In this document: piece after piece, positions 7,571-57,354 of the stretch
How positions within the stretch are numbered: position 1 is the first letter of the stretch
Layout of the letters: every line of letters starts with the position of its first letter
Assembly (NCBI GenBank): GCA_964518765.1
Contig: CAZFJC010000005.1
Span: 54,403 to 118,402 of the forward strand
Source: an uncultured bacterium
GTDB taxonomy: Bacteria; Edwardsbacteria; AC1; EtOH8
Length of the DNA stretch: 64,000 bases
Reading direction: 5' to 3'
The notes under the pieces: generated by a model
The model's database searches: none
The model's input: only the letters and a program-made list of their open reading frames with translations
Told to the model about the DNA's origin: nothing
Program-made: the position numbers and the translations under genes

Positions 7571-8780
7571 GGACCTCCTCCACCTTCATTGACGCCTCGC
7601 CCTTCCAGAACCTGATCCGAGCCCTGTCTCCCTTCGCCAGCCTTCCAGCCTCCCTGACCGCTTTTCCCCTCCGGTCGAAGCAGATGCTGTAACCCCTCCC
7701 TAACACTGCCGCCGGGTCCAGGGCCGACAGCAGTGCTTCCATCCTTGAGGTTTTAAACACGGCCGCCTGGTAGCTGCCGAGGATACCGGCATTAGCCCTG
7801 GAGGCAAGCACATCCAGCGTTTGGCGCTTCTGGTCGATCATAGAAACCAACAGGTTCATCCCGTGGCTTCGTCGGAGCGAATCAAGTCGGGAACGGTATC
7901 CGTCTACCATGCCCTTCAGCGCCAGTTCCATCCTCTCACGGCTCCCGTCCAAGGAGCTCTGCACCTCCTCCCGGCTTGGTACCGCCATCTCGGCCGCGGC
8001 CGAGGGCGTCGGCGCCCGGAGGTCGGCGGCGAAGTCGGCCAGGGTGAAGTCCACCTCATGCCCCACCGCCGAAATGACAGGCAACCTGGAGCCGGCTATG
8101 GCCCGGACCGTCTCCTCCTCGTTGAAGGCCCAAAGGTCCTCCATCGATCCCCCGCCCCGGCCGACTATCAGCACGTCCACCCGTTCGAATTCGTTGAACT
8201 CAGCAATGGCCCGGGCTATCTCCGCGGCCGCCCCCGTCCCCTGGACCGGCACCGGATTGAGAATGAGCTCTATGCCCGGCCACCGCCGCCTGGCCACCTT
8301 GATGATGTCGCGGACAGCCGCCCCGGTGGGCGAGGTGACGATGCCGATGGCGCGCGGCAAGGCCGGGATCGGCCTTTTCCTGGCCTGGTCGAAAAGCCCC
8401 TCGGCCTCAAGCTTGCGCTTCAGGCGCTCCAGGGCCAGGGCCAGCTCCCCCTGCCCGGCCGGCTGCAGCTGTTGCACATTGAGCTGGTATTGGCCAGCCC
8501 GCTCGAAGACTGTTATATCGCCCTGAGCCAGCACCTGCATTCCGTCCTGGGGAAAGATGCGCAACGTCTGGGCCGCGCCCCGGAACATGACGCAGCGCAG
8601 CTGGCTGGCTGAGTCTTTGAGGGTAAAGTACAGGTGGCCCGAAGAGTGGGCGGTGAAATTGGAGACCTCGCCCCGCACCCACAGCCTGGGAAACCCGGAC
8701 TCCAGCGCCTGTTTGACCCGTGAGGTCAGCTGGGAGACGGTCAGTATGTTTCTGGTTTCTTCGGGCATGTGGCTGACCAC
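7563..8780 (-). CDS. xseA: exodeoxyribonuclease VII large subunit
   Basis: 405 aa with an OB-fold N-terminus (LWVRGEVSNF) and the ExoVII catalytic core. Overlaps xseB by 8 nt. Confidence 0.9.
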   Translation of the reverse strand: MVSHMPEETRNILTVSQLTSRVKQALESGFPRLWVRGEVSNFTAHSSGHLYFTLKDSASQLRCVMFRGAAQTLRIFPQDGMQVLAQGDITVFERAGQYQLNVQQLQPAGQGELALALERLKRKLEAEGLFDQARKRPIPALPRAIGIVTSPTGAAVRDIIKVARRRWPGIELILNPVPVQGTGAAAEIARAIAEFNEFERVDVLIVGRGGGSMEDLWAFNEEETVRAIAGSRLPVISAVGHEVDFTLADFAADLRAPTPSAAAEMAVPSREEVQSSLDGSRERMELALKGMVDGYRSRLDSLRRSHGMNLLVSMIDQKRQTLDVLASRANAGILGSYQAAVFKTSRMEALLSALDPAAVLGRGYSICFDRRGKAVREAGRLAKGDRARIRFWKGEASMKVEEVHG

Positions 8781-8783
8781 CCC

Positions 8784-9695
8784 TTAATCCCCTCCTTGCC
8801 AAGGAGGGGAAATAGAGGAGGTGGCCGCCTTGACGCAGTTGCGCAGCAGCATGGCCCGGGTCAGCGGCCCCACCCCGCCCGGCACCGGAGTTATATAAGA
8901 GGCGATTTTCTCGGCCGACTCGAAGTCAACGTCTCCCACCAGCCGGAAGCCGCTCTTGGCCGAGGGGTCCTCGATCCGATTGACCCCCACATCCACCACC
9001 ACGCAATTGTTGTTCAGCATGTCCCCGGTGATGATCCCCGGCGAGCCGGCGGCGGCGATGACGATGTCCGCCTGCTTGGTGTAATAGGCCAGCCCCCGGG
9101 TACGGGTGTGACAGACGGTGACCGTGGCGTCCCCCCGGTCCGACTTCTGGGTCAGCATGTTGGCCAGGGGCCGTCCTACGATGTTGGAGCGGCCCACGAT
9201 TACTATATATTTTCCCGGTATCTCGATCCCGGTCCTGACCAGTATCTCCACCACCCCGGCCGGGGTGCAGGGCAAAAAGCGGGGCCGGCCCTGGGTCAAA
9301 AGGCCCACGTTCTCAGGATGGAAGCAGTCAACGTCCTTGAGCGGCGATATCTTCCGGAAGGCTGCCTGCTCGTCCAGGCCCTTGGGCAGTGGCGACTGGA
9401 CAAGTATCCCGTGGATGGTTGTATCTTTGTTAAGCTTGTCGACCTGGGCAAGCAGTTCGTCCTGGGTGGTGGTCTCCGGCATCTCGATAACCGTGGACTT
9501 GATGCCGGTCTCCTGGCAGTCCTTGTGCTTGTTGCGCACGTAGACCTGTGAGGCCGGGTCCGAGCCCACGATGATGACGGCCAAGTGGGGCTCTTTCCCC
9601 TTTGCCCTTAATCCTTGGACCTCTTGGGCAACCTCCCCCTTGATCTCGATCGCTATTTTCTTGCCGTCAATTACTATTCCCATATCGGCTTTCAA
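8784..9695 (-). CDS. folD: bifunctional 5,10-methylene-THF dehydrogenase / cyclohydrolase
   Basis: Typical FolD sequence (HLAVIIVGSDPASQVYVRNK...GILVQSPLP...). Alternative start 12 nt downstream at MGIVIDG. Confidence 0.9.
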   Translation of the reverse strand: MKADMGIVIDGKKIAIEIKGEVAQEVQGLRAKGKEPHLAVIIVGSDPASQVYVRNKHKDCQETGIKSTVIEMPETTTQDELLAQVDKLNKDTTIHGILVQSPLPKGLDEQAAFRKISPLKDVDCFHPENVGLLTQGRPRFLPCTPAGVVEILVRTGIEIPGKYIVIVGRSNIVGRPLANMLTQKSDRGDATVTVCHTRTRGLAYYTKQADIVIAAAGSPGIITGDMLNNNCVVVDVGVNRIEDPSAKSGFRLVGDVDFESAEKIASYITPVPGGVGPLTRAMLLRNCVKAATSSISPPWQGGD

Positions 9696-10464
9696 GGGCC
9701 AAGCTCTCTATTTTTCGAGAAAAGCTGTTTCGATCATCGATCTCCACCACCACCGCATTCAGCCTGACCTCCCCCTCGGCCGTCTCGAACTTCTGCGGCA
9801 TCCCGGTCAAGAAGCGCCTGAGCACCGCCTCCTTCTGCATGCCGATCACCCCGTCGAAGCCTCCGGTCATGCCGACGTCGGTGATGTAGGCCGTGCCATT
9901 GGGGAGTATCCTCTCGTCGGCCGTCTGGACGTGGGTGTGGGTTCCGATGACCGCCGTGGCCCGTCCGTCGAGATGCCAGCCCAAGGCGACTTTTTCCGAC
10001 GTAGCCTCGGCGTGGATATCGACAACGATGATATCAGTTTCCTTCCTGATTTTTTCGACCATCTCGGTGGCCTTGCGGAAAGGGCAGTCCAACGCCTGCA
10101 TGAACACCCGGCCCTGCAAACAGAAGACCCCGACCCTGGCTCCATTTCTGGCTTTAAAGATGCCGGACCTGGCGCCCACCGCTCCCTCCGGGTAATTGGC
10201 CGGGCACAGTATCCTGGGCTCCTTGGCTATATACCACACGGAGTCCTTCTTGTCCCACAGGTGGTTTCCCCCCGTCAGGACGTCTATCCCCAGGCTGAGC
10301 AGTTCACGTCCCACGCTCTCGGTGATGCCGAACCCGGCCGCCGCGTTCTCTCCATTGGCGATGACGAAGTCGATCCCGTGCCTCTCGGCCAGCCCCGGCA
10401 GCAGCTGTTTGACCGCCTGTCTCCCCGGCCGCCCGATAATATCGCCGATGAATAATACTTTCAA
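9667..10464 (-). CDS. ymdB: TIGR00282-family metallophosphoesterase (YmdB-like 2',3'-cNMP phosphodiesterase)
   Basis: MKVLFIGDIIGRPGR...GENAAAGFGIT...GGNHLWD. Sits next to rny as in the B. subtilis rny-ymdB operon. Confidence 0.85.
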   Translation of the reverse strand: MKVLFIGDIIGRPGRQAVKQLLPGLAERHGIDFVIANGENAAAGFGITESVGRELLSLGIDVLTGGNHLWDKKDSVWYIAKEPRILCPANYPEGAVGARSGIFKARNGARVGVFCLQGRVFMQALDCPFRKATEMVEKIRKETDIIVVDIHAEATSEKVALGWHLDGRATAVIGTHTHVQTADERILPNGTAYITDVGMTGGFDGVIGMQKEAVLRRFLTGMPQKFETAEGEVRLNAVVVEIDDRNSFSRKIESLALESRYGNSN

Positions 10465-12097: not shown

Positions 12098-12286
12098 TAA
12101 AATTCCCCGCCTGTGCCGGGCAGGCGAACGTTTTGAACCCGTTAAAAAGTGGTGCCGCCTCGAACGCTTTAGGCTTCCCCGCGCCGGCGGGGCGTGCACA
12201 CCACGTCCGAAGGTTATGGCCCTTGATAACAGGTGTTGGCTCAAAAACTGTCCGCGAGCTTCGGGCACTGCAGGGAATGCTTGCTC
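12098..12286 (-). ncRNA. ssrS: candidate 6S RNA (SsrS), ~190 nt, between zapA and rny
   Basis: Promoter TTGAAA-N17-TATATT at complement(12293..12321) lies directly after the zapA stop. Transcript 5' segment (GCAUUCCCUGCAGUGCC) pairs with the 3' segment (GGCAC..GGGGAAU) to give a closing helix, followed by UUUU. Internal GAAGCCUAAAGCG and GGGUUCAA resemble the E. coli 6S 3' strand. Position downstream of zapA matches E. coli and many other bacteria. Confidence 0.45.
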
Positions 12287-31325: not shown

Positions 31326-32219
31326 TTAGGATGCAGTCGCCGAAAGATAAACTCCGGCCAGAATGAGGACGCCCCCGGCGATCTCTCTCGTAGTGGGCGC
31401 CTGCCCCAGCAGCAGGAAGGCCAGGACCGTGGCCCCGATGGGCTCGGCCACGATCATCATGGCGATCCTGGAGGCCGGCAGGAATCTCAGCCCCCAGTTG
31501 AAGACGGTGTGGCCCAATATCTGGGGCCCCAGGGCCAGGGCCAGGAACAAACTCCAGGTGCGGCCGTTGAAGCCCCAGAGCCTTTCGCCCGCAGCCAGGC
31601 CGGCAGCTAGTAGAAGCAGGGCGGTGGCCGTGTAACAGACGGTGGCATATCCGACCACCCCCAGACCCTGTCTCATCCTTCTACCGGCCAGCAGGTAGAG
31701 CGAGGCCATCAAGGCCCCGCCCAGAGCCAATAGGTTTCCGGCCATCGCCCTTCCGCCGGCCTGGATGGCCCCGCCGCCTATCAGCAATCCCCCGGCTATC
31801 ACCAGCACTATGGCGGCCCCCAGCCTCCAGCTTACCCTCTCCCCCAGAAACAGCCAGCCCAGTATCCCCACGAAGAGCGGGTTCAAGGTCACCAGGACTA
31901 CCGAGCTGGCCACGGTGGTAAACTCCAGGGAGTAAAGCCACAGCCCAAAGTGCATGGCCAGGAAGAGGCCGGACAGCAGGGCGCCGGTGAGCTTTTTCCT
32001 GTCGAACGAACTCCATCCCCTATTCGCCATAAAGGCTGGCCACAGCATCAGGCTGGCCAGACCCAGGCGATAGAAGGCCACCGCCAGGGGCCCCGCCCGG
32101 CAGAGCTTGATGAGGACGGCGGCGCTGGAGATGGAGGCTATTCCCAATGCCATCATCGCCCAAAGGTAGGGGGGACTTTTTCCCAATGTTGGCTGACGAG
32201 CAGAGGAGATGGCCTCCAT
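31326..32219 (-). CDS. EamA-family (DMT superfamily) transporter
   Basis: Ten predicted TM helices in two EamA repeats. Confidence 0.8.
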   Translation of the reverse strand: MEAISSARQPTLGKSPPYLWAMMALGIASISSAAVLIKLCRAGPLAVAFYRLGLASLMLWPAFMANRGWSSFDRKKLTGALLSGLFLAMHFGLWLYSLEFTTVASSVVLVTLNPLFVGILGWLFLGERVSWRLGAAIVLVIAGGLLIGGGAIQAGGRAMAGNLLALGGALMASLYLLAGRRMRQGLGVVGYATVCYTATALLLLAAGLAAGERLWGFNGRTWSLFLALALGPQILGHTVFNWGLRFLPASRIAMMIVAEPIGATVLAFLLLGQAPTTREIAGGVLILAGVYLSATAS

Positions 32220-32244
32220 CTCCTCTGCTCCTGCTCCCTTTGAT

Positions 32245-44387: not shown

Positions 44388-44465
44388 AGCGGAACGCCTT
44401 CTAGAGGCCCAATCCTAATCCCTTCCCCGCTGGGGAAGGGGAGAGAGGGGTTTGGTCCCCAGTCT

Positions 44466-45038
44466 TTAGCATCCCCGGCCCAGCTCGAAGGCCTTCCTGT
44501 TCATCTCCACCGTCTTGGGCGGAACCCGCCTGGTGATAACCTCAAGCCACTTGTCGGTCGGAAGCTCCAGCCTTTTGGAGAGCGCCCCCAAAAGCACCAT
44601 GTTGATGGTCTTGGGACTGCCCGCCTGCTCCGATAGCCTCAGACCGTCGCAGAGCACCGTGCCCGGGACCTGGGATTTGATGCGGTCGATGATGTCTTGC
44701 GGGTACTCGGCCTTGCCGGTGGCCACCGTCATCGGCATCACCTGCTGTCGGTTGATTATTACGGCGCCGTCCCTCTTCAGGAAGTCCAGGTAGCGGGCGG
44801 TCTCCATCTCCTCGAAGGAGAGGACGACGTCGGCCTCGCCCTGGCGGATCAGCGGCGAATGGACCCTGTCCCCGTAACGCACGTGGCTGACCACGCTGCC
44901 GCCCCGCTGGGCCATGCCGTGGACTTCTGATTTCTTGGCGTCGAATCCGCAGGCCATGGCCGTCTCGGCGATGATGTCCCCGGCCAAGAGCACCCCCTGA
45001 CCCCCGACGCCGCAGATGACTATGTTTACGGTTTTCAC
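44466..45038 (-). CDS. iorB: indolepyruvate:ferredoxin oxidoreductase beta subunit
   Basis: GTG start (VKTVNIVICGVGGQGVL) with AGGAG RBS 7 nt upstream. Confidence 0.85.
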   Translation of the reverse strand: MKTVNIVICGVGGQGVLLAGDIIAETAMACGFDAKKSEVHGMAQRGGSVVSHVRYGDRVHSPLIRQGEADVVLSFEEMETARYLDFLKRDGAVIINRQQVMPMTVATGKAEYPQDIIDRIKSQVPGTVLCDGLRLSEQAGSPKTINMVLLGALSKRLELPTDKWLEVITRRVPPKTVEMNRKAFELGRGC

Positions 45039-45091: not shown

Positions 45092-45454
45092 CTATGACCG
45101 TTTTCTCAAGCTTTGTTGCAGCCCCTTCAGCATCACGCTGATCTCGATCGCTTCCTGTTGATTGCACCGGTATTCTTCGGATCCCAGGAAACCGATTTCT
45201 TTCGCTATATCTAATCCTGCCATTACCTCGAAAGTTGAACGCTGAGCGATGTCTAGGAACCTTATAAACTCCTTGGTCGATCTGCTTCCCGCTCCCTCCG
45301 CGATATTCAAAACGATGGAGTAGGCCGCCCGGCGCAACTGTGAGGTTAATCCCAGAACTTCGCTTTTCGGAAACTTGGCAGTCAATTCATAAATAGTCTT
45401 CGTATAAGCGACCGCCTTCTGATAAACTCGAAGGTCCCTGAACTTGTTCATCAC
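45092..45454 (-). CDS. four-helix-bundle protein (TIGR02436, 23S rRNA intervening-sequence protein family)
   Basis: 120 aa (KFRDLRVYQKAVAYTKTIYELTAKFPKSEVLGLTSQLRRAAYSIVLNIAEG...). Inserted between iorA and iorB. Confidence 0.8.
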   Translation of the reverse strand: MMNKFRDLRVYQKAVAYTKTIYELTAKFPKSEVLGLTSQLRRAAYSIVLNIAEGAGSRSTKEFIRFLDIAQRSTFEVMAGLDIAKEIGFLGSEEYRCNQQEAIEISVMLKGLQQSLRKRS

Positions 45455-45491: not shown

Positions 45492-47246
45492 TCACCGTTT
45501 CATCGCCTTCTTGGGGCACAGCGACGCACACACCTCGCACCCGGTGCAGAAGATGGGGTCGATGTGCGATTTCTTCCTCTTGGCGTCGAAGGAGATGGCC
45601 GGGCAGCCCAGCTTGAGGCACAGCCTGCAGCCCACGCATTCATCTTCGTCAACGTGCAGGGGCGGCTTGAACTTCTTGTCTATCAGGATGCAGGGCGACT
45701 TGGCGATGACCACCGAGACACCGTCGTGGCTCGCCGCCGCCTTGAGCGCCGCCTCGGTAGCCTTGAGGTCAAGCGGGTCCACGGTTTTGACGTCCTTCAC
45801 CCCGCACGCCCGGCAGATCTCCTCCAGCGACAGCACCGGAGCCGGTTGGCCCTGGAGTGTTTTCCCCGAGCCCGGGTTCTCCTGGTGGCCGGTCATGGCC
45901 GTGATCCGGTTGTCCAGTATCACCACCGTGCCCCGGGCGTTGTTGTAGACCATGTCGATCAGGCCCGTTATCCCGGAGTGGAAGAAGGTAGAGTCGCCGA
46001 TGACGGCCACTGTCTTTTGGGCCATCTCCGGGCCTAGGGCCTTCTCCAGGCCCATGGCCGCGGTCACCGAGCCGCCCATGCAGATGACGGTGTCCATGGC
46101 CTCCAGCGGCTCCATCATCCCTAAAGTGTAGCAGCCGATGTCGCCGGTGGCCGTCAGCTTCAGCTTGTTGATGGCGTAGAACACTCCGCGGTGCGGACAG
46201 CCGGGACAGAGCACCGGCGGCCGGCCCGGCAGCTCCATGTTCTTATAGGTCGGCTCCGCCTGTAGGCCGAAGGCCCGGGCCACCGCCGTCGGGTCCAGCT
46301 CGCCGACGATAGGCACCCTGTCCTTCCCGGAGATCGGCCTGTCGAACTGGCACTTGCCCTTGACGGAATAGCCCTGGGCCTTTATCTGCTCCTCCAGGAA
46401 CGGGTCGTTCTCCTCGATGACATAGACCTCGTCCACCGACGAGATGAAGTTGGCAATCAGCTTGCCGGGCGGCGGGTAGGTAAGTGCTAGTTTTAAATAG
46501 GAGGCATCCGGGAAGACTTCTTTGGCGTACTGGTAGGAGATACCGCTGGTGATGATGCCCAGCTTGGTGCTCCCCCTTTCAATCTTGTTCCCCTGAAAAG
46601 TCTCGCCGTACTCGGCCAGCTTCTTCAGCCTCTCCTCAACCTTGACGTGCAGCTTCCTGGCATGGGCCGGAATGGTTATCCTTTTTTTGATATCCTTGAC
46701 GTATCCCATCGGCTTGTGCTCCCTCCTCTCACCCGGCTCCACCGCCCCCTTGGAGTGGGAGATGCGGGTGGTCAGCCTTAGCAGCACCGGGGTGTCGAAC
46801 TTCTCGGAGATCTCGAAGGCCAGCCTGGCGTACTCCAGGCACTCCTGGGAGTCCGAAGGCTCCAGGCAGGGTATCTTGGCCATCTTGGCGTAGTAGCGGT
46901 TGTCCTGTTCGTTCTGAGAGGAGTGCATGCCCGGGTCGTCGGCCGACACCACCACCAGCCCCCCGGTGGCCCCGATGTAGCCCATGGAGAACAGGGGGTC
47001 GGCGGCCACGTTCAGGCCCACGTGCTTCATGCAGGTCAGGGCCCGGGCTCCGCCGAAGCTGGCCCCGGCCGCCACCTCCAGGCCCACCTTCTCGTTGGTT
47101 GCCAGCTCGGCGTAGACCTCCTGGTACTTGGCCAGGTTCTCCAGTATCTCGGTGGAGGGCGTCCCCGGATAGGCCGAGACCACGTTGACCCCGGCCTCCC
47201 AGGCCCCCCGGGCCACCGCCTCGTTTCCGGAAAGGAGTACTTTCAT
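45492..47246 (-). CDS. iorA: indolepyruvate:ferredoxin oxidoreductase alpha subunit
   Basis: 584 aa with a TPP-binding domain and a C-terminal 2x[4Fe-4S] region (CVGCRLCLKLGCP, CTGCEVCASLCP). Confidence 0.9.
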   Translation of the reverse strand: MKVLLSGNEAVARGAWEAGVNVVSAYPGTPSTEILENLAKYQEVYAELATNEKVGLEVAAGASFGGARALTCMKHVGLNVAADPLFSMGYIGATGGLVVVSADDPGMHSSQNEQDNRYYAKMAKIPCLEPSDSQECLEYARLAFEISEKFDTPVLLRLTTRISHSKGAVEPGERREHKPMGYVKDIKKRITIPAHARKLHVKVEERLKKLAEYGETFQGNKIERGSTKLGIITSGISYQYAKEVFPDASYLKLALTYPPPGKLIANFISSVDEVYVIEENDPFLEEQIKAQGYSVKGKCQFDRPISGKDRVPIVGELDPTAVARAFGLQAEPTYKNMELPGRPPVLCPGCPHRGVFYAINKLKLTATGDIGCYTLGMMEPLEAMDTVICMGGSVTAAMGLEKALGPEMAQKTVAVIGDSTFFHSGITGLIDMVYNNARGTVVILDNRITAMTGHQENPGSGKTLQGQPAPVLSLEEICRACGVKDVKTVDPLDLKATEAALKAAASHDGVSVVIAKSPCILIDKKFKPPLHVDEDECVGCRLCLKLGCPAISFDAKRKKSHIDPIFCTGCEVCASLCPKKAMKR

Positions 47247-47389
47247 GCGTTCTCCATTTAATATTCGCCCGATTTCTTGCCTGTCTCTCTTTGACTTTTA
47301 TTATAACCCATGCCTGGGCCGAAGTCAAAGCAGAAAATGAAAAGCCCGGACGGCTGACGTCCGGGCTGGGCTGCTTTCGCCTGTTTCTG

Positions 47390-47438
47390 ACCACCCCTCG
47401 CTCCCCTCCTTAGAAAAGGAGGGGATTAAGGGGTGGTT
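47390..47438. repeat. REP-like palindromic element, copy 1
   Basis: ACCACCCCT-cgc-TCCCCTCCTT-agaa-AAGGAGGGGA-ttaa-GGGGTGGT. Confidence 0.55.
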
Positions 47439-47473
47439 GGTTATATGCTCTTCGAAGTTCTCGGCCGTCCCCC

Positions 47474-47510
47474 GTTCCACTCCTTGATTAAGGAGGGGAT
47501 AAAAGGGGAG
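47474..47510. repeat. REP-like palindromic element, partial copy 2
   Basis: CCACTCCTTgattAAGGAGGGGAtaaaAGGGGAG. Confidence 0.45.
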
Positions 47511-47511
47511 G

Positions 47512-48741
47512 TCAGTGTCCCGCCCCCTCGTCCGGCTTGGTGATCTCCAGCGCCTTGGCGATCACCTTGACTGCCCAGTCCACGTCCCGCTTGGATATCA
47601 CCAGCGGCGGGGCGAAGCGGATGGTCTGCTCGTGGGTGTCCTTGGCCAGTATCCCGGACTTCATCATGGCCAGGCAGTAGGGCCGGGCCCGCCCCGCCTC
47701 CAGCTTCAGCTCCATGCCGGTCAGCAGGCCCATGCCCCGGACCTCCTTGATCTTGTCGGTCTTGATCTTCAGCAACTGCTTGCGGAAGTAGTCGCCCAGC
47801 GACCTGGCCCGCTGGTCCAGCTTCTCGCGCCTGAGCACGTCCAGGGCGGCCATGCCGATGGCGCAGGCCAACGGATTGCCCCCGAAGGTGCTGCCGTGCT
47901 GCCCGGGCCCGATGACGTCCATCACCTCCCAGCAGGAGAGCACCGCCGAAACCGGGTAAAGCCCGCCGCCCAGCGCCTTGCCGACGATCAGGACGTCCGG
48001 CTTGGCCCCCTCGTGCTGCCAGCAGAACGGTTTTCCGGTGCGGCAGAATCCGGTCTGCACCTCGTCCAGCATGAAGAGGACGTTGTTGCGGTCGCAGATC
48101 TCCTTGCATCTGGTCAGGTACCCCTTGGAGGGCACCTTGACCCCGGCCTCGCCCTGGATGGGCTCCACCATGAAGCCGGCGGTGTTCTGGTTGATGGCCT
48201 TCTCCAAGGCCTCGGGGTCGTTGTAGGGTATGATCTTGAAGCCGGGCATGGCCGGCCCGTAGCCGCCGTAGGCGTCGGGATCGGTGGAGAAGCTGACGAT
48301 GGTGCTGGTGCGGCCGTGGAAGTTCTCGGAGCAGACGATGATCTCGGCCTTGTCCTTGTCGATGCCCTTCTTCTCGTAGCCCCACTTGCGGCAGAGCTTG
48401 ATGGCCGTCTCCACCGCCTCGGCCCCGGTGTTCATGGGCAGGGCCACCTCCATCTGGGCGTACTGGCACAGCTTCTGGAGGAAGACCCCCAGCTTGTCGT
48501 TATGGAAGGCCCGGCTGGTCAGGGTCAGCTTGTCCGACTGCTGCTTCATGGCCCGGATGATGGCCGGGTGGCGGTGACCCTGGTTGACGGCCGAGTAAGC
48601 CGACAGCATATCCAGGTACTTCTTCCCTTCCACATCCCACACCCAGATCCCCTGTGCCTTGGCGATGACCACCGGCAGCGGATGATAGTTGTGGGCCCCG
48701 TATTTCTCGGTAAGGTTGATCAGGTCCTTGCTTTTGGCCAT
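47512..48741 (-). CDS. rocD: ornithine aminotransferase (class III PLP aminotransferase)
   Basis: 409 aa, AT-III fold with PLP lysine region. Confidence 0.8.
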   Translation of the reverse strand: MAKSKDLINLTEKYGAHNYHPLPVVIAKAQGIWVWDVEGKKYLDMLSAYSAVNQGHRHPAIIRAMKQQSDKLTLTSRAFHNDKLGVFLQKLCQYAQMEVALPMNTGAEAVETAIKLCRKWGYEKKGIDKDKAEIIVCSENFHGRTSTIVSFSTDPDAYGGYGPAMPGFKIIPYNDPEALEKAINQNTAGFMVEPIQGEAGVKVPSKGYLTRCKEICDRNNVLFMLDEVQTGFCRTGKPFCWQHEGAKPDVLIVGKALGGGLYPVSAVLSCWEVMDVIGPGQHGSTFGGNPLACAIGMAALDVLRREKLDQRARSLGDYFRKQLLKIKTDKIKEVRGMGLLTGMELKLEAGRARPYCLAMMKSGILAKDTHEQTIRFAPPLVISKRDVDWAVKVIAKALEITKPDEGAGH

Positions 48742-48901
48742 TTGCTTTTCTCCTTTTCGGTTCGGGCCTGAATATCACTGAAAAGACGATGGTATCACCC
48801 TGAGCCCGGCATCGTGGCTGTCAGGTTGAAGGGTGGCGCTGTCATCCTTCAATTGGTCAGACAGAATGCTTTCCCAGGATGACATCGAGCTCATCTGTTT
48901 C

Positions 48902-49804
48902 CTACCTCTTTCCCCCGAAGAGGTCCTTCCTGATGCCCAGGTAGTTGGCGATGTTGGCCCTTTTGTCGATCACCGGGGCTATCCTCCCGATCCTGGAGGT
49001 TAAGACAGTGGTCACCCCCGGCCCGTGCCCGGCCAGGACGCAATCCGAATGAACCACCACCCCGATGGACACCGAGCCCTTGCGGAAGCAGCGGCCGTAG
49101 CAGTTGTCGGTGTTCTCCAGGGCGACGATGTCGCCGAAGCGCACCTTGTCGATGCCCAGCCTCCTCAGCGTCTCCTTGTCGGCGGTGGTGATGTCGTAGT
49201 CGCCGCTGGCCACCGAGGCCGATCCCAGACCCGAGCCCATCAGCTCGGCCGGTATGGAGCAGACCACCGGGACCTCCAGCATCCTCCGAGAGTTGACCCG
49301 CGCGCCCAGTTTGTGAAGCAGTCTGGGATCTATATTGAAGACCCGTATCTCCGGCAGGTCCAGCAGGGCCAGGCCCAGGCCGTAAGACTTTATCTGGATC
49401 TTATCTCCGATGACCAGCTGCTCCAGCACCTTCCAGTCGAAGTCCACCAGCACGTGCTCGATGCCGCCGTGCTTGCCGGTGACCCATCCCTTGGCGCCCT
49501 TGGCGGCGCCGCTGACCAGGGTGGCCTCGTTGCCGATGCAGGCCAGGGTGTTCAGGCCGGCGTTCTCCGGGCTGGATGGCTCCTTGCTCTCCCGATTGCT
49601 TATAGAGACTCCGGGCTCCATGTGGTCGGCGGCCCAGCCGAAGGCCGGATCGCCCACCCGGATGTTGAAGGTGATGCCCCCGGTTCCGGGCAGGATCATG
49701 GCCTGGCCCTCATGGCTCACCCGGTAGGGCGAGCGGAACTTGGGCGAGGTGATCTCTCCGATCACCGACTGCATCACCAGCTGTTTCTCGTTGGTCTTTA
49801 ACAT
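48902..49804 (-). CDS. DUF4438-family protein of unknown function
   Basis: 300 aa, no assigned function. Confidence 0.55.
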   Translation of the reverse strand: MLKTNEKQLVMQSVIGEITSPKFRSPYRVSHEGQAMILPGTGGITFNIRVGDPAFGWAADHMEPGVSISNRESKEPSSPENAGLNTLACIGNEATLVSGAAKGAKGWVTGKHGGIEHVLVDFDWKVLEQLVIGDKIQIKSYGLGLALLDLPEIRVFNIDPRLLHKLGARVNSRRMLEVPVVCSIPAELMGSGLGSASVASGDYDITTADKETLRRLGIDKVRFGDIVALENTDNCYGRCFRKGSVSIGVVVHSDCVLAGHGPGVTTVLTSRIGRIAPVIDKRANIANYLGIRKDLFGGKR

Positions 49805-49816
49805 CTCAGCATCTTT

Positions 49817-50380
49817 CTAAATCGTGTGTCTGCCTTTCCAGCCCCAGACCGCCAGGGCCGCTATCCCGGCCTTGGCTATATCGCCAGTGAGGAAGGGGAG
49901 CGCCCCCATCTGCAGGGCGCGGCTTACGTCGAGATGGAGAAGGGCGGCTAGCCAGGCAGAGCCCGCGGAAAGTATCAACACGGACCCGAGAGCCATGGCG
50001 CCTATCGTCGTTCCGATCCCCCGCCTTGCCTCGAGCATCCCGCCGATGCTGTAAGCGGCGGCCACGAAGCCCAGGAGATAACCCCCGGTCGGCCCTAGCA
50101 GATGTCCGATGCCGCCGGCCGCGCCCTGGAACACCGGCAGGCCGGCCGCTCCGACAGCCAAATATAGGGCCTGCGAGGCCGCCGCCCTGCGCCCCAGGAA
50201 GCCGGCCGACAGCAGGACGGCCAGCGTCTGCAGGGTCAGCGGCACCGGGGTGAACGGCAGCGGCACCCGGACGAAGGCCGCCAGGGCGGTCATCAGGGCG
50301 AAGGCGGATATGCCCAGGGCGTCGGCCAGCGCCTTCGGGGCCTCGACCGGCCGGGCCAGGGCTAGCTGGATGTTTTTCAT
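49817..50380 (-). CDS. bioY: BioY-family biotin transporter component
   Basis: Start at Met28 (MKNIQLALARPVEAP...); six TM helices. The first 27 codons of the track ORF are the translated palindrome. Confidence 0.8.
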   Translation of the reverse strand: MKNIQLALARPVEAPKALADALGISAFALMTALAAFVRVPLPFTPVPLTLQTLAVLLSAGFLGRRAAASQALYLAVGAAGLPVFQGAAGGIGHLLGPTGGYLLGFVAAAYSIGGMLEARRGIGTTIGAMALGSVLILSAGSAWLAALLHLDVSRALQMGALPFLTGDIAKAGIAALAVWGWKGRHTI

Positions 50381-50418
50381 AGAGGTGTCTGTAAAAATCA
50401 TAACTCTTAGGAATGGAT

Positions 50419-50474
50419 CCCGACCACCCCTCGTTTCCCTCCTTGATGAAGGAGGGGACAAAGGGGTGGTCGGG
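50419..50474. repeat. REP-like palindromic element, copy 3
   Basis: CCCGACCACCCCT-cgtt-TCCCTCCTT-gatg-AAGGAGGGGA-caa-AGGGGTGGTCGGG; near-perfect 55-bp palindrome. Confidence 0.55.
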
Positions 50475-50477
50475 TGA

Positions 50478-51848
50478 TTACGGTCCGAACTCCAGGTCCG
50501 GCCCCTTGAAGTGGCGGTGCTCCACCACCGTCAGCACGTGGTCCAGAATCTCCAGGCCGGCCTTGGCCTCCTCGCGGCTTAGGACCAGCGGCGGGCAGAT
50601 CCTCAGGGTGTTGGTGCCGCAGCCCAGCATCAAAAGTCCCCGCTTGAAGGCCTCCTGGATGACCGCCTCCATGGCCTCGTGGGCCTTCTCCCGGGTCCTT
50701 TTATCCTTGACTATCTCCACCCCGATCATCAGACCCTTGCCACGAACGTCACCCATGGAGCAGTGTTTCTTCTGCATCCGCCGCAGCTCGGCCGTCATGT
50801 ACTCGCCCACCAGCTGGGCGTTTCGCATCAGACCCTTGTCGATGAGGTCCATGGTGGCCAAAGCGGCGGCGCAGCACACCGGGTTCCCGCTGAAGGTGTT
50901 GCCGTGGGATCCCGGCTTCCAGTCCATTATCTTCGAGGGGGCGATGATGGCCCCCATGGGTAGGCCCGAGGCGATGCCCTTGGCCGCGGTGATGATGTCC
51001 GGCCTCACCCCGAAGTGCTCGATAGCGAACCATTTGCCGGTGCGGCCCATGCCCGACTGGATCTCATCGGCAATCATCAGGATACCGTGCCGGTCGCACA
51101 GCTGGCGCAGGGCCTTGACCGCCTCGGCCGGAGGCACTACGTAGCCGCCCTCTCCCTGGATGGGTTCTAATAGCAGTCCGGCCACCTCCTCCGGGGGGAC
51201 GATGGTCTTGAGGACCACATCCTCGATGTACTTGACGCACTCCAGCGAGCAGCCGGGATAAGACTTGTTGAAGACGCAATGGTAGCAGTTGGGATAGGGC
51301 ACGTGGGTGACGCCCGGCATGGTGGGAAAGAAGCCCTTCTTCTGGGTGGGCTTGGAGCCGGTGCAGGAGACGGCCCCCATGGTCCGGCCGTGGAAGGCCC
51401 CGATGAAGGCCAGGAACTGCGGCCGCTTAGTGTGGTAGCGGGCCAGCTTCAGCGCCCCCTCGATGGCCTCGGCCCCGGAGTTGCAGAAGAAGACCTTGCT
51501 GTCGCGGCCGGTGGGCGACACTTGCCGGAGCCTCTCGGCCAGCTCCACCTCGGGCAGGTAGTAGAAGTCGGTGCCCGAGTAGTGGATGAGTTTTCCCGCC
51601 TGGTCGGCGATGGCCTTGACCACCTTGGGATGACAGTGGCCGGTGGAGTTGACGGCGATGCCGGCGCAGAAGTCCAGCAGCTGGTTGCCGTCGACGTCGG
51701 TCAGCCACACCCCCTGGCCGCGGTCGATGACCGCCGGGTAGGCTCGGGTGTACGACGGGGAGAGCGACTTCCGATCCCGGCCGACGATAGCCCTGGCCTT
51801 GGGACCGGGGAAGTTCTTGCTTATCTGGGGGCGCTTTCTTATCGGCAT
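50478..51848 (-). CDS. class III aminotransferase (4-aminobutyrate / omega-amino acid aminotransferase-like)
   Basis: 456 aa, AT-III family (LIADEIQSGMGRTGKWFA). Confidence 0.85.
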   Translation of the reverse strand: MPIRKRPQISKNFPGPKARAIVGRDRKSLSPSYTRAYPAVIDRGQGVWLTDVDGNQLLDFCAGIAVNSTGHCHPKVVKAIADQAGKLIHYSGTDFYYLPEVELAERLRQVSPTGRDSKVFFCNSGAEAIEGALKLARYHTKRPQFLAFIGAFHGRTMGAVSCTGSKPTQKKGFFPTMPGVTHVPYPNCYHCVFNKSYPGCSLECVKYIEDVVLKTIVPPEEVAGLLLEPIQGEGGYVVPPAEAVKALRQLCDRHGILMIADEIQSGMGRTGKWFAIEHFGVRPDIITAAKGIASGLPMGAIIAPSKIMDWKPGSHGNTFSGNPVCCAAALATMDLIDKGLMRNAQLVGEYMTAELRRMQKKHCSMGDVRGKGLMIGVEIVKDKRTREKAHEAMEAVIQEAFKRGLLMLGCGTNTLRICPPLVLSREEAKAGLEILDHVLTVVEHRHFKGPDLEFGP

Positions 51849-53499: not shown

Positions 53500-53574
<75 letters not shown>

Positions 53575-53580
53575 AAAATA

Positions 53581-53616
53581 GAAGAGGCGACCCATTGGGT
53601 CGCCTCTTCTTTATTT
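53581..53616 (+). terminator. intrinsic terminator of tRNA-Gln
   Basis: GAAGAGGCGACCC-attg-GGTCGCCTCTTC followed by TTTATTT. Confidence 0.7.
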
Positions 53617-57227: not shown

Positions 57228-57307
57228 TACCCCGGAGCCATTATTTATTGTTCTGAAGGACCGCCAGGCGTGGACGCCAGCCCGGCTCGGTCCATCTTGA
57301 AACCAAT

Positions 57308-57336
57308 AGAGGGGCAGCCCTTTGGGCTGCCCCTCT
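57308..57336 (-). terminator. GC-rich perfect hairpin downstream of the GGDEF gene (terminator-like)
   Basis: AGAGGGGCAGCCC-tttg-GGCTGCCCCTCT. Confidence 0.4.
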
Positions 57337-57354
57337 ATTTTCGGCCCTCGTCAG

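What the first reader, a model, noticed from the sequence alone, without database searches (positions are those of the whole stretch)
47390..50474. REP-like ~55-bp palindromic element present three times, each just 3' of a class-III aminotransferase paralogue
Copies at 47390-47438 and 50419-50474, plus a partial copy at 47474-47510, share the nested palindrome ACCACCCCT..TCCCTCCTT..AAGGAGGGGA..AGGGGTGGT, with arms of 9+9 bp. Two copies follow the rocD-like gene and one follows the gabT-like gene, in each case between the stop codon and the next gene's start region (iorA, bioY). The inner arm contains a perfect AAGGAGG Shine-Dalgarno-like sequence that would be sequestered in the stem. Candidate roles are a REP-type mRNA-stabilising or terminator element, a translational regulator, or a small mobile palindrome. 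The 27 N-terminal codons of the bioY ORF in the track are just this element translated.
Basis: seen in the sequence. Interest (0 to 1): 0.5.

Follow-up and report, generated by a model that had tools for sequence, protein, structure and literature searches.

The report
Mobile nested palindrome linked to DUF559
The repeated ~52-bp hairpin next to the two aminotransferase genes is not their regulator but a solo copy of a selfish, insertion-prone palindrome found with almost the same sequence in many bacterial phyla, where it typically flanks a small DUF559 nuclease gene.

Summary
The window has five copies: A 47388-47439, B 47462-47513 (full length but decayed), C 50421-50472, D 8774-8824 (folD/xseA junction) and a variant copy E 44405-44456. 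A, C and D fold at -35 to -45 kcal/mol (z -4.8 to -7.6).

The link to aminotransferases is coincidental. A syntenic relative (RocD 95% identical) lacks A, B and C as clean 52-71 nt indels, and outgroups also lack A and B.

The same element, ACCWCCCCT-n4-CCCCTCCTT-loop-AAGGAGGGG-n4-AGGGGWGGT, occurs in at least 120 genome stretches from about 20 phyla. There it repeatedly flanks small DUF559 (Vsr-like PD-(D/E)xK) nuclease genes. In a protein-anchored sample, 63 of 80 DUF559 genes carry the hairpin within 250 nt, in the layout [hairpin-G arm]-DUF559-[C arm-hairpin].

I read the window copies as solo, non-autonomous members of a REP/MITE-like family with a candidate nuclease partner. No DUF559 gene lies in the window.

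D looks co-opted. It encodes FolD's last 12 codons and stop, and places a Shine-Dalgarno-like arm 8 nt before the xseA ATG. It is 58/59 identical in a relative whose flanking third-codon positions are only 66-69% identical.

No Rfam family matches and no paper was found.

The parts
47388..47439 (-). Copy A: intact nested palindrome ACCACCCCT-TAAT-CCCCTCCTT-TTCT-AAGGAGGGG-AGCG-AGGGGTGGT, in the rocD 3' UTR, 16 nt after copy B and upstream of the terminator.
   Evidence: Covariance model 63.1 bits on the - strand and 60.2 on the + strand. RNA folding -40.2 kcal/mol, z -6.65. Absent from the orthologous site in L121.
47462..47513 (-). Copy B: full-length but decayed copy (ACCTCCCCT..CCCCTCCTT AATC AAGGAGTGG..GGGGGACGG). 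Its first bases overlap the rocD stop codon TGA.
   Evidence: Covariance model 33.8 bits on the - strand and 34.9 on the + strand; B was not used to build the model. RNA folding -23.4 kcal/mol, z -2.4. It is a 52-nt gap in the alignment with L121.
50421..50472 (-). Copy C: intact copy between the stop codon of the acetylornithine-aminotransferase-family gene (TAA 50478-50480) and the true bioY start (ATG 50380). The outer stem extends to 12-14 bp (50419-50474).
   Evidence: (I25). Covariance model 57.2 bits. RNA folding -44.5 kcal/mol, z -7.6. It is a 71-nt gap against L121, where the two genes are 27 nt apart.
8774..8824 (-). Copy D: folD/xseA junction. It has a degenerate left arm, a 10-bp inner stem with a 3-nt loop and an intact right arm. 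It encodes FolD's last 12 codons plus the stop TAA (8784-8822). The arm GGGGTGGT ends 8 nt before the xseA ATG (8768).
   Evidence: (I6, I7). Covariance model 64.4 bits on the - strand and 64.9 on the + strand. RNA folding -35.5 kcal/mol, z -4.8. The FolD profile ends about 10 residues before the ORF end. The tail is shared by relatives at 85-89% identity. The element is 58/59 identical in L206, against 69% and 66% identity at third codon positions of the flanking genes.
44405..44456 (-). Copy E: variant ('type 2') nested palindrome, ..AAACCCCTCT CT CCCCTTCCCC AGC GGGGAAGGG ATT AGGATTGGG.., between the iorB stop (44466-44468) and the next gene start (44387). The outer arms are decayed.
   Evidence: Perfect 9-bp pyrimidine/purine hairpin. 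Sequence read. Covariance model 18.6 bits, E 0.018; E was not used to build the model. The orthologous site in L121 carries an intact type-2 palindrome. L208 has the same type at its folD/xseA junction.
47343..47367 (-). Context, not part of the element: canonical intrinsic terminator (10-bp stem followed by TTTTCATTTT) downstream of copy A. The iorA promoter-like site (47328-47300) follows it.
   Evidence: Both features are conserved in L121, which lacks the elements.

Best explanation
The five copies are solo, non-autonomous members of an interspersed family of nested palindromes that is found in many phyla. The consensus is (A/G)ACCWCCCCT-n4-CCCCTCCTT-loop(3-5)-AAGGAGGGG-n4-AGGGGWGGT(Y).

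Shown here:
- The copies enter or leave genomes as precise 50-70 bp units. They sit in short intergenic spaces at or just after stop codons.
- They have no preferred strand.
- Their sequence is nearly the same in about 20 phyla.
- The gene-bearing form of the family is a ~0.45-kb unit: [hairpin - G-rich arm] - DUF559 (a small Vsr-like PD-(D/E)xK nuclease) - [C-rich arm - hairpin].

Inferred, not shown:
- The DUF559 nuclease is the partner that spreads or maintains the palindromes. This would resemble RAYT genes flanked by their REPs, or a free-standing homing nuclease with its target.
- The solos in this window are copies mobilised in trans, or scars of such units.
- The G-rich arm and inner arm look like Shine-Dalgarno sequences because they serve as a portable ribosome-binding site for the nuclease gene in any host.

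Once inserted, a copy is transcribed with its neighbours and folds into a very stable hairpin. Most copies are probably neutral passengers (A, B, C).

D has been co-opted. It supplies FolD's C-terminal tail and stop codon. It probably couples xseA translation to folD translation by masking the arm GGGGUGGU, 8 nt before the xseA ATG, until a ribosome reads through the hairpin.
For: Family membership and spread:
I estimate about 13 chance matches for the whole collection. The unspecified flank ACCW is present, with A at position -1 in 98% of copies.
- An alignment of 38 copies from many phyla places the window copies inside the family.

Gain and loss:
- L121 (RocD 95% identical, syntenic) has no type-1 copy in 13 kb. 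A, B and C are clean gaps of about 70, 52 and 71 nt, and the flanks, terminator and promoter align.
- The outgroups L123, L124 and L125 also lack A and B.

DUF559 link:
- Eight of 9 DUF559 genes in the 835 kb of pattern-derived loci lie within 250 nt of a hairpin. Several are flanked on both sides.
- In 80 loci fetched by DUF559 protein similarity alone, 63 have the hairpin within 250 nt: 45 upstream, 42 downstream, 24 on both sides.
- The arrangement is polar. Upstream copies mostly carry the G arm (27 of 51). Downstream copies mostly carry the C arm only (22 of 42).
- Variant stems (CCCTCCTT, CTCCCCTT, CCCCCCTT) keep their complementarity.
- In about half of the cases the G arm lies 4-15 nt before the DUF559 start codon.
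- The DUF559 profile matches PDB 3HRL (E 8.5e-32) and the Vsr-like homing endonuclease I-Bth0305I, 3R3P (E 1.5e-5).
- A published survey lists DUF559 among gene families enriched as predicted inversion targets, which fits flanking inverted repeats (PMC9881135).

D co-opted:
- The tail TSSISPPWQGGD* is shared by relatives.
- The element is 58/59 identical, against 84.9% and 80.4% nucleotide identity in the flanking genes and 69% and 66% at third codon positions.
Against: - No DUF559 gene lies in the 64-kb window or in the relatives' contigs. I could not retrieve the rest of the source genome, so a partner in this organism is not shown.
- A nuclease alone cannot explain insertion, and no mobilisation mechanism is demonstrated.
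- No general target-site duplication is visible. Only the C site is compatible with a TA or TAA duplication.
- Hairpin type and DUF559 clade co-vary only weakly: 49.2% identity within types against 47.1% between, with 8 of 2000 permutations reaching the observed difference. Fifteen loci carry mixed types.
- The direction of the association is open. DUF559 genes may simply prefer to insert next to such hairpins.
- The 80 DUF559 loci are the closest relatives of proteins that were already hairpin-associated. The 79% figure applies to that subfamily only.
- The insertion containing A carries about 22 nt of extra sequence, so it is not a clean element-only insertion.
Confidence: 0.68

Rival explanations
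1. The element exists mainly because of its RNA function, as REP elements are thought to work: a stable 3'-UTR or intercistronic hairpin that blocks 3' exonucleases or ends transcripts. On this view its spread is secondary.
For: The hairpins are very stable, -35 to -45 kcal/mol. All five window copies lie at or just after stop codons of co-directional genes. Many copies elsewhere begin 0-10 nt after a stop codon. D is under purifying selection.
Against: None of the copies has a T tract, and the terminator scan flags only the separate hairpin at 47367-47343. A close relative does without A, B and C while keeping that terminator. A structural role needs pairing, not a fixed stem sequence, so it does not explain near-identical stems across phyla. 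Copies with one outer arm show no strand bias relative to neighbouring gene ends (35 against 38). B and E are decaying.
Confidence: 0.25
2. The element is a translational device. Two Shine-Dalgarno-like motifs (AAGGAGG and GGGGWGGT) are masked by two mimics of the 16S rRNA 3' end. The device arose or is maintained in each phylum because the anti-Shine-Dalgarno sequence is universal. It couples or represses translation of the downstream gene.
For: The right half is complementary to the 16S 3' tail, read from the sequence with general knowledge of the anti-Shine-Dalgarno sequence. In D the arm is 8 nt before the xseA ATG, the folD stop lies in the internal loop, and the whole element is conserved. 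The G arm lies 4-15 nt before many DUF559 start codons.
Against: - In C the motifs are 34-60 nt or more from the bioY ATG.
- A and B are followed by a terminator, not by a gene.
- Variant families use AAGGGGGG or GGGGAAGGG stems, which resemble Shine-Dalgarno sequences less well.
- Elements occur in either orientation and in Bacteroidota, which by general knowledge rarely use Shine-Dalgarno sequences.
- The presence/absence pattern and the DUF559 association point to common descent rather than convergence.
Confidence: 0.2
3. The solo copies are not mobile themselves. They are scars left when a DUF559 unit, flanked by two copies of the palindrome in direct order, is deleted by recombination between those copies. 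This is analogous to solo LTRs.
For: DUF559 genes are bracketed by two copies in the same order. Twelve upstream copies are complete L-hairpin-R elements. Solos greatly outnumber gene-bearing units: about 138 hairpins against 9 DUF559 genes in L001-L120.
Against: Most downstream copies lack the distal arm. Recombination between the two hairpins would therefore leave a bare hairpin or a three-quarter copy more often than the complete L-hairpin-R form seen in A and C. It requires five independent DUF559 insertions and precise losses within 64 kb, with no DUF559 remnant anywhere.
Confidence: 0.2
4. The copies are remnants of a local duplication of the aminotransferase gene 3' ends, or a gene-specific cis-regulator of the two aminotransferase paralogues.
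For: Three copies lie 3' of two paralogous class-III aminotransferase genes.
Against: The relative L121 has both paralogues and none of the three copies. Copies D and E and more than 100 loci in other phyla sit next to unrelated genes. No Rfam family matches.
Confidence: 0.02

Closest known systems
REP / REPIN elements with their RAYT (REP-associated tyrosine transposase) genes
   Same: Short GC-rich imperfect palindromes dispersed in extragenic space, often just after stop codons. Solos far outnumber the partner protein gene. The partner gene is itself bracketed by copies of the repeat. Some copies may act on mRNA.
   Different: - The partner is a DUF559 PD-(D/E)xK (Vsr-like) nuclease, not an IS200/IS605-type HUH Y1 transposase.
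- No GTAG or CGTC tag is present at the foot of the hairpin.
- The structure is a two-tier nested palindrome.
- The sequence is nearly the same across phyla, whereas REP sequences are lineage-specific (general knowledge; PMC3733652 and PMC3116915 appeared in the search list but I did not read them in detail).
Bacterial MITEs (for example Correia/NEMIS, RUP, ERIC)
   Same: Small non-coding units with inverted-repeat ends. They show presence/absence polymorphism between close relatives, insert in intergenic regions, and can donate stop codons, ribosome-binding sites or coding tails to neighbouring genes.
   Different: - At about 52 bp the whole element is essentially one hairpin.
- There is no consistent target-site duplication.
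- No DDE-transposase insertion sequence with matching ends was seen. The only recurrent partner gene is a nuclease.
Vsr-like homing endonuclease I-Bth0305I (PDB 3R3P) and the DUF559 structure 3HRL
   Same: The flanked gene belongs to the same PD-(D/E)xK Vsr-like fold. This fold is known to act as a selfish homing nuclease (PMC3239194, listed).
   Different: I-Bth0305I is encoded in a group I intron inside a phage recA gene. The DUF559 genes here are free-standing, about 110-130 aa, and bracketed by palindromes. No cleavage activity or target is known for them.
Integron attC sites and gene cassettes
   Same: An imperfect palindrome of 50-60 bp directly after the stop codon of a small promoter-less ORF, with ORF + palindrome units in one orientation.
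   Different: No RYYYAAC / GTTRRRY core sites are present. No integrase or cassette array is seen. Here the stem sequence is conserved, whereas attC sites conserve structure only.
Translational coupling through an intercistronic hairpin that masks the downstream ribosome-binding site
   Same: This applies to copy D only. The upstream stop codon and the downstream Shine-Dalgarno-like motif lie inside one stable hairpin, 22 nt before the downstream start codon.
   Different: Here the hairpin is a co-opted repeat element rather than a locus-specific structure. Coupling has not been tested.

Membership tests
REP/REPIN-RAYT | Short imperfect palindrome, multi-copy, in extragenic space | tested here: met
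   Five copies in 64 kb, all intergenic or overlapping a gene's last codons. Up to 5 hairpins per 8 kb in other genomes. The copy number in the source genome could not be measured.
REP/REPIN-RAYT | Conserved GTAG or CGTC tetranucleotide at one end of the palindrome | tested here: not met
   The consensus ends are (A/G)ACCWCCCCT and AGGGGWGGT(Y). No GTAG or CGTC is present.
REP/REPIN-RAYT | Cognate RAYT (IS200/IS605-like Y1 HUH transposase) gene flanked by the repeats | tested here: not met
   The gene recurrently flanked by the repeats is DUF559, PF04480. I did not search specifically for RAYT genes elsewhere in these genomes.
MITE | Terminal inverted repeats on a short non-coding unit with presence/absence polymorphism | tested here: met
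   Nested inverted repeat. Empty sites for A, B and C in L121.
MITE | Target-site duplication of fixed length or sequence | tested here: inconclusive
   The C site is compatible with a TA or TAA duplication. B looks like an insertion between the T and the AG of the stop codon TAG, with no duplication. The flank logo of 144 copies shows no conserved target beyond position -2.
MITE | Autonomous insertion sequence with the same ends that encodes a transposase | tested here: not met
   The only gene-bearing form encodes a 110-130 aa PD-(D/E)xK nuclease. No transposase domain was seen next to the copies I inspected.
Intrinsic (Rho-independent) terminator | GC-rich hairpin followed directly by a T/U run | tested here: not met
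   The scan of 47000-51000 flags 47367-47343 but none of A, B or C. The bases after each copy contain no T run.
Integron attC | R''/R' core sites (RYYYAAC ... GTTRRRY) and an associated integron integrase or cassette array | tested here: not met
   The flanks do not fit the core consensus. No integrase was seen in the window ORFs I inspected. I did not run a dedicated integrase search.
Any Rfam RNA family | Covariance-model score at or above the family's gathering threshold | tested here: not met
   Only 6S RNA and one tRNA pass threshold in the window. The best sub-threshold matches on the element are generic miRNA-hairpin models.
Palindrome family associated with DUF559 (defined here) | Sequence and structure match to the cross-phylum consensus ACCWCCCCT-n-CCCCTCCTT-loop-AAGGAGGGG-n-AGGGGWGGT | tested here: met
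   Covariance model R1, - strand: A 63.1, C 57.2 and D 64.4 bits (these three were in the seed alignment); B 33.8 and E 18.6 bits (not in the seed).
Palindrome family associated with DUF559 (defined here) | A DUF559 gene of the associated subfamily present in the same genome | not testable with these tools
   None in the 64-kb window. The source contig (125 kb, NCBI) and the rest of the genome could not be fetched.

The most novel reading that the evidence does not exclude
The palindrome plus the DUF559 gene make up a previously undescribed class of selfish element. In this reading a Vsr-like PD-(D/E)xK nuclease, rather than an HUH or DDE transposase, recognises a two-tier hairpin or cruciform and drives its own spread and that of solo palindromes. 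The route would be homing-like or microhomology-mediated repair. The element carries a universal Shine-Dalgarno / anti-Shine-Dalgarno module, which would let it be expressed in almost any bacterial phylum and would explain its near-identical sequence across about 20 phyla.
Probability: 0.3. Interest if true: 0.85.

Novelty: new variant of a known kind. Interest (0 to 1): 0.62.

Why it matters
For annotation:
- These hairpins create false N-terminal extensions (bioY here).
- They create real C-terminal tails (FolD here).
- They account for the 'PLLKGEG'-type peptides at the ends of many predicted proteins.

For biology:
- A repeat whose sequence barely changes across about 20 phyla is unusual. 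REP and MITE sequences are normally lineage-specific.
- The tight, polar association with a small nuclease of unknown function gives DUF559 (PF04480) a testable role for the first time: partner or parasite of a hairpin repeat.
- If the nuclease does mobilise or home into the palindrome, this would be a REP/RAYT-like system built on a different enzyme.
- Copy D is a clean example of such an element being co-opted into a gene's coding end and into the expression signals of the next gene.

Tried and rejected
- **Gene-specific regulator or local duplication:** rejected by the empty sites in L121 and by copies at unrelated genes.
- **Known RNA family:** none in Rfam.
- **Terminator:** no T run after any copy.
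- **Strand bias of one-armed copies relative to gene 3' ends:** none, 35 against 38. This rests on crude ORF calls of at least 150 aa. My first greedy gene map was too noisy to use.
- **General TA target duplication:** not supported by the flank logo.
- **attC:** the core sites are absent.
- **Mismatch idea:** a Vsr-like enzyme might recognise an A/A or T/T mismatch at the W position of the outer stem. I found 17 mismatched against 8 paired full copies, which is not significant, and the window copies are paired.
- **Co-diversification of hairpin type and DUF559 clade:** only a weak signal.
- **Phage vehicle:** only 21 stretches in 2.9 million viral contigs.
- **Larger element with a transposase between two copies:** the 1.2-kb interval in L084 holds an ordinary NAD-dependent epimerase-like ORF.
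- **Literature:** searches on the sequence motifs, DUF559, COG2852/PF04480 and 'Vsr-like' plus 'palindromic' found no description of this association.
- **Source genome:** the exact-protein look-ups failed and the cluster look-up gave no names. The nearest named relatives are candidate division TA06 / Edwardsbacteria MAGs, at about 80% RocD identity.

Technical slips:
- Wrong frame for xseA.
- Wrong frame for bioY, corrected.
- The 8-sequence DUF559 alignment was too divergent for the locus search and was replaced by 3 sequences.
- L042 and L043 are chance hits in tRNA genes with a GCA anticodon loop.

Full report
**1. The observation**

The sequence at 47390-47438 and 50419-50474 is a two-tier palindrome as described. 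It reads ACCACCCCT / CCCCTCCTT - loop - AAGGAGGGG / AGGGGTGGT. It is far beyond chance. The core pattern with up to 3 mismatches gives 3 matches against 0.11 expected. The strict inner hairpin gives 3 against 0.00.

All neighbouring genes are on the minus strand:
- rocD, 47512-48741
- an acetylornithine-aminotransferase-family gene, 50478-51848
- iorA, 45492-47246
- bioY, true start ATG 50380, 187 aa

It begins at the rocD stop codon.

- D, at the folD/xseA junction (8774-8824).
- E, a variant copy after iorB (44405-44456).

Nothing else in the 64 kb matches.

RNA folding energies are A -40.2 kcal/mol (z -6.7), C -44.5 (z -7.6), D -35.5 (z -4.8) and B -23.4 (z -2.4). DNA parameters give the same structures.

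A canonical intrinsic terminator (47367-47343) and a near-consensus promoter (47328-47300) lie downstream of A. They are separate features.

**2. It is not a feature of the aminotransferase genes**

RocD homologues place the organism near uncultured candidate division TA06 / Edwardsbacteria lineages. The best named hit is 80% identical, and an unnamed metagenome protein is 95% identical.

The contig encoding the 95% relative (L121) is syntenic: aminotransferase - bioY - DUF4438 - rocD ... iorA. It has no type-1 copy in 13 kb. In pairwise alignments the flanks, the terminator and the promoter line up, and A, B and C fall out as clean gaps of about 70, 52 and 71 nt. In L121 the aminotransferase and bioY genes are 27 nt apart.

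More distant relatives (L123, L124, L125; 79-80% identity) also lack anything at the rocD 3' end. The simplest reading is therefore gain in the window's lineage.

At the C site the flanks (CCG TA A|...|CC TA AGAG, against the empty site CCT TA AGAA) would allow a TA or TAA duplication. B looks like an insertion between the T and the AG of the ancestral stop codon TAG, with the element restoring a TGA stop.

No Rfam family matches.

**3. The same element is found across the bacterial tree**

I scanned one genome per species with a pattern that fixes only CCCCT, the inner stem and the two gaps. I estimate about 13 chance matches for the whole collection.

The hits come from Nitrospinota, Nitrospirota, anammox Planctomycetota, Ignavibacteria, Bacteroidota and Balneolaceae. 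They also come from Patescibacteria, Acidobacteriota, Chloroflexota, Zixibacteria and several proteobacterial classes. Cultured isolates and closed chromosomes are included.

Bases that the pattern left free are conserved. The arm reads (A/G)ACCWCCCCT, with A at position -1 in 98% of 144 copies. The opposite arm AGGGGWGGT is present in the full copies. An alignment of 38 copies gives the consensus ACCnCCCCTTTATCCCCTCCTT-nnn-AAGGAGGGGATAAAGGGGnGGT, and the window copies sit inside it.

Other properties of the family:
- The element stays GC-rich even in AT-rich genomes.
- Many copies have only one outer arm.
- Several 8-kb blocks hold 3-5 hairpins.
- A crude test found no strand bias of one-armed copies relative to nearby gene ends (35 against 38).
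- No conserved target sequence is visible beyond the arm.
- The element is rare in viral contigs (21 stretches).

**4. The recurrent partner is a small DUF559 nuclease gene**

While looking for a larger element bounded by two copies, I found that in L100 (Balneolaceae) two paralogous 129-aa ORFs are each bracketed by the palindrome. These ORFs are DUF559, PF04480 (E 1.5e-24).

A tblastn search found 9 such genes in the 835 kb of pattern-derived loci. Eight lie within 250 nt of a hairpin, and several are flanked on both sides. Hairpin neighbourhoods cover only about 10% of that sequence.

The reverse test started from the protein. Eighty metagenome loci were fetched by DUF559 similarity alone. 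In 63 of them (79%) CCCTCCTT-loop-AAGGAGGG, with at most one mismatch per arm, lies within 250 nt of the ORF: 45 upstream, 42 downstream and 24 on both sides.

The arrangement is polar:
- Upstream copies mostly carry the G-rich arm next to the gene (27 of 51).
- Downstream copies mostly carry the C-rich arm only (22 of 42), often overlapping the stop codon.
- The unit is therefore [(L)-hairpin-R]-DUF559-[L-hairpin].

A sequence-blind scan for perfect hairpins found one in 60 of 77 upstream regions and 46 of 73 downstream regions. The stem variants CCCTCCTT, CTCCCCTT and C/TCCCCCTT all have their exact complements, always with the pyrimidine arm first.

In about half of the cases the G-rich arm ends 4-15 nt before the DUF559 start codon, the distance expected for a ribosome-binding site.

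The DUF559 profile matches PDB 3HRL (E 8.5e-32) and the Vsr-like homing endonuclease I-Bth0305I (3R3P, E 1.5e-5).

Hairpin type tracks DUF559 relatedness only weakly.

A published survey lists 'DUF559 domain-containing protein' among gene families enriched as predicted inversion targets. This fits flanking inverted repeats (PMC9881135). I found no paper that describes the palindrome or its link to DUF559.

No DUF559 gene is present in the window or in the relatives' contigs. The rest of the source genome could not be retrieved.

**5. Copy D is old and constrained**

The FolD profile ends about 10 residues before the ORF end. The last 12 codons and the stop codon (TSSISPPWQGGD*) are the element translated.

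The same tail occurs in FolD proteins at 85-89% identity. It is degenerate in two others and absent from the rest.

In L206 (FolD 89% identical) the element is 58/59 identical. The folD core is 84.9% identical at the nucleotide level (third positions 69%), and xseA is 80.4% identical (third positions 66%). At the third-position rate about 18 differences would be expected, so D is under purifying selection. Its odd features (degenerate left arm, 3-nt loop) are kept, which argues against homogenisation by other copies.

The folD stop lies in the internal loop. The arm GGGGTGGT ends 8 nt before the xseA ATG (8768). The most economical reading is translational coupling: the arm is masked until a ribosome finishing folD opens the hairpin. 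This is an inference.

A relative without the tail (L208) has a type-2 palindrome at the same junction. The type-2 copy E is matched by an intact type-2 palindrome at the orthologous site in L121. This lineage therefore carries two subfamilies, with copies of different ages.

**6. Interpretation**

Shown:
- A dispersed nested palindrome conserved across phyla.
- Recent gain of A, B and C.
- A tight, polar association of the family with DUF559 genes.
- Selective constraint on D.

Inferred:
- DUF559 is the partner that spreads or maintains the palindromes, in the manner of RAYT genes and their REPs or of a homing nuclease and its target.
- The Shine-Dalgarno-like purine arms are a portable ribosome-binding site, with the pyrimidine arms as its mask. 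This would explain why the stems keep the same sequence in hosts that share only the 16S 3' end.

Rival readings are scored separately:
- An RNA-stability element.
- A convergent translational device.
- Scars of excised DUF559 units.
- A local duplication.

The first three are not mutually exclusive with the main reading. The last is contradicted.

**7. Comparison with known systems and verdict**

The element behaves like a REP/REPIN or a MITE. It fails defining features of both:
- No GTAG or CGTC tag and no RAYT gene.
- No transposase-bearing parent element and no consistent target duplication.

It is not a terminator, not an attC site and not an Rfam family.

I file it as a new variant of a known kind: an interspersed palindromic repeat with a different candidate partner enzyme and an unusually wide, sequence-conserved distribution.

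The local finding is modest in itself. The family behind it, and the handle it gives on DUF559, are worth following up.

Noticed in passing
window 45092-45454 (-): A 120-aa gene of the 23S rRNA-intervening-sequence protein family (PF05635, four-helix bundle; E 1.6e-34) is wedged between iorA and iorB. The relative L121 has it at the same place (9796-10155), preceded by a run of ACGTAGTAACG-like repeats. It is possibly another small selfish insert in this operon.
   Followed up: partly
L121 7304-7976: The relative carries a nucleotidyltransferase/HepT toxin-antitoxin pair between rocD and iorA. This is the same intergenic region where the window has copies A and B, so the spot appears to tolerate repeated insertions.
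   Followed up: no
window 12100-12279 (-) and 53500-53570 (+): 6S RNA (86.5 bits) and one tRNA (56.8 bits) are the only Rfam matches above threshold in the window.
   Followed up: no
window 32198-32230, 53580-53610, 57305-57339: Three long perfect hairpins (stems of 15, 14 and 16 bp, 3-nt loops) unrelated in sequence to the element. The second lies directly after the tRNA gene. They are probably terminators.
   Followed up: no
L100 3530-5770: In a Balneolaceae MAG two DUF559 units (89% identical over the first 84 residues) occupy both intergenic spaces around a thiolase gene, downstream of a fadB-like gene. The second DUF559 appears frameshifted (two tblastn segments). There are five hairpins in 8 kb.
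   Followed up: partly
L129, L142, L148, L157, L158 and L163 (DUF559 flanks): A sister variant of the palindrome uses TCCCCCCTT-loop-AAGGGGGGA with arms ACCCCCCTG / CAGGGGGGT. The layout around DUF559 is the same.
   Followed up: partly
L215 and L216 (IMGVR_UViG_3300044996_000692): One 23.6-kb 'viral' contig holds six copies of the element, against 21 matching stretches in the whole viral collection. It may be a misclassified host fragment or a heavily invaded prophage.
   Followed up: no
L022, L034, L075 and L093 (Nitrospinota JAOUPX01): In this genome an AGGGG motif lies upstream of the C-rich arm (AGGGG-n11-AACCTCCCCT) rather than downstream of the hairpin. That gives two adjacent hairpins instead of a nested one.
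   Followed up: no
window 15631, 32501 and 54681: The 9-mer ACCACCCCT also occurs three times inside coding sequence with no adjacent hairpin (8 occurrences in all, against 0.59 expected). These are not element copies according to the profile or covariance-model searches.
   Followed up: yes
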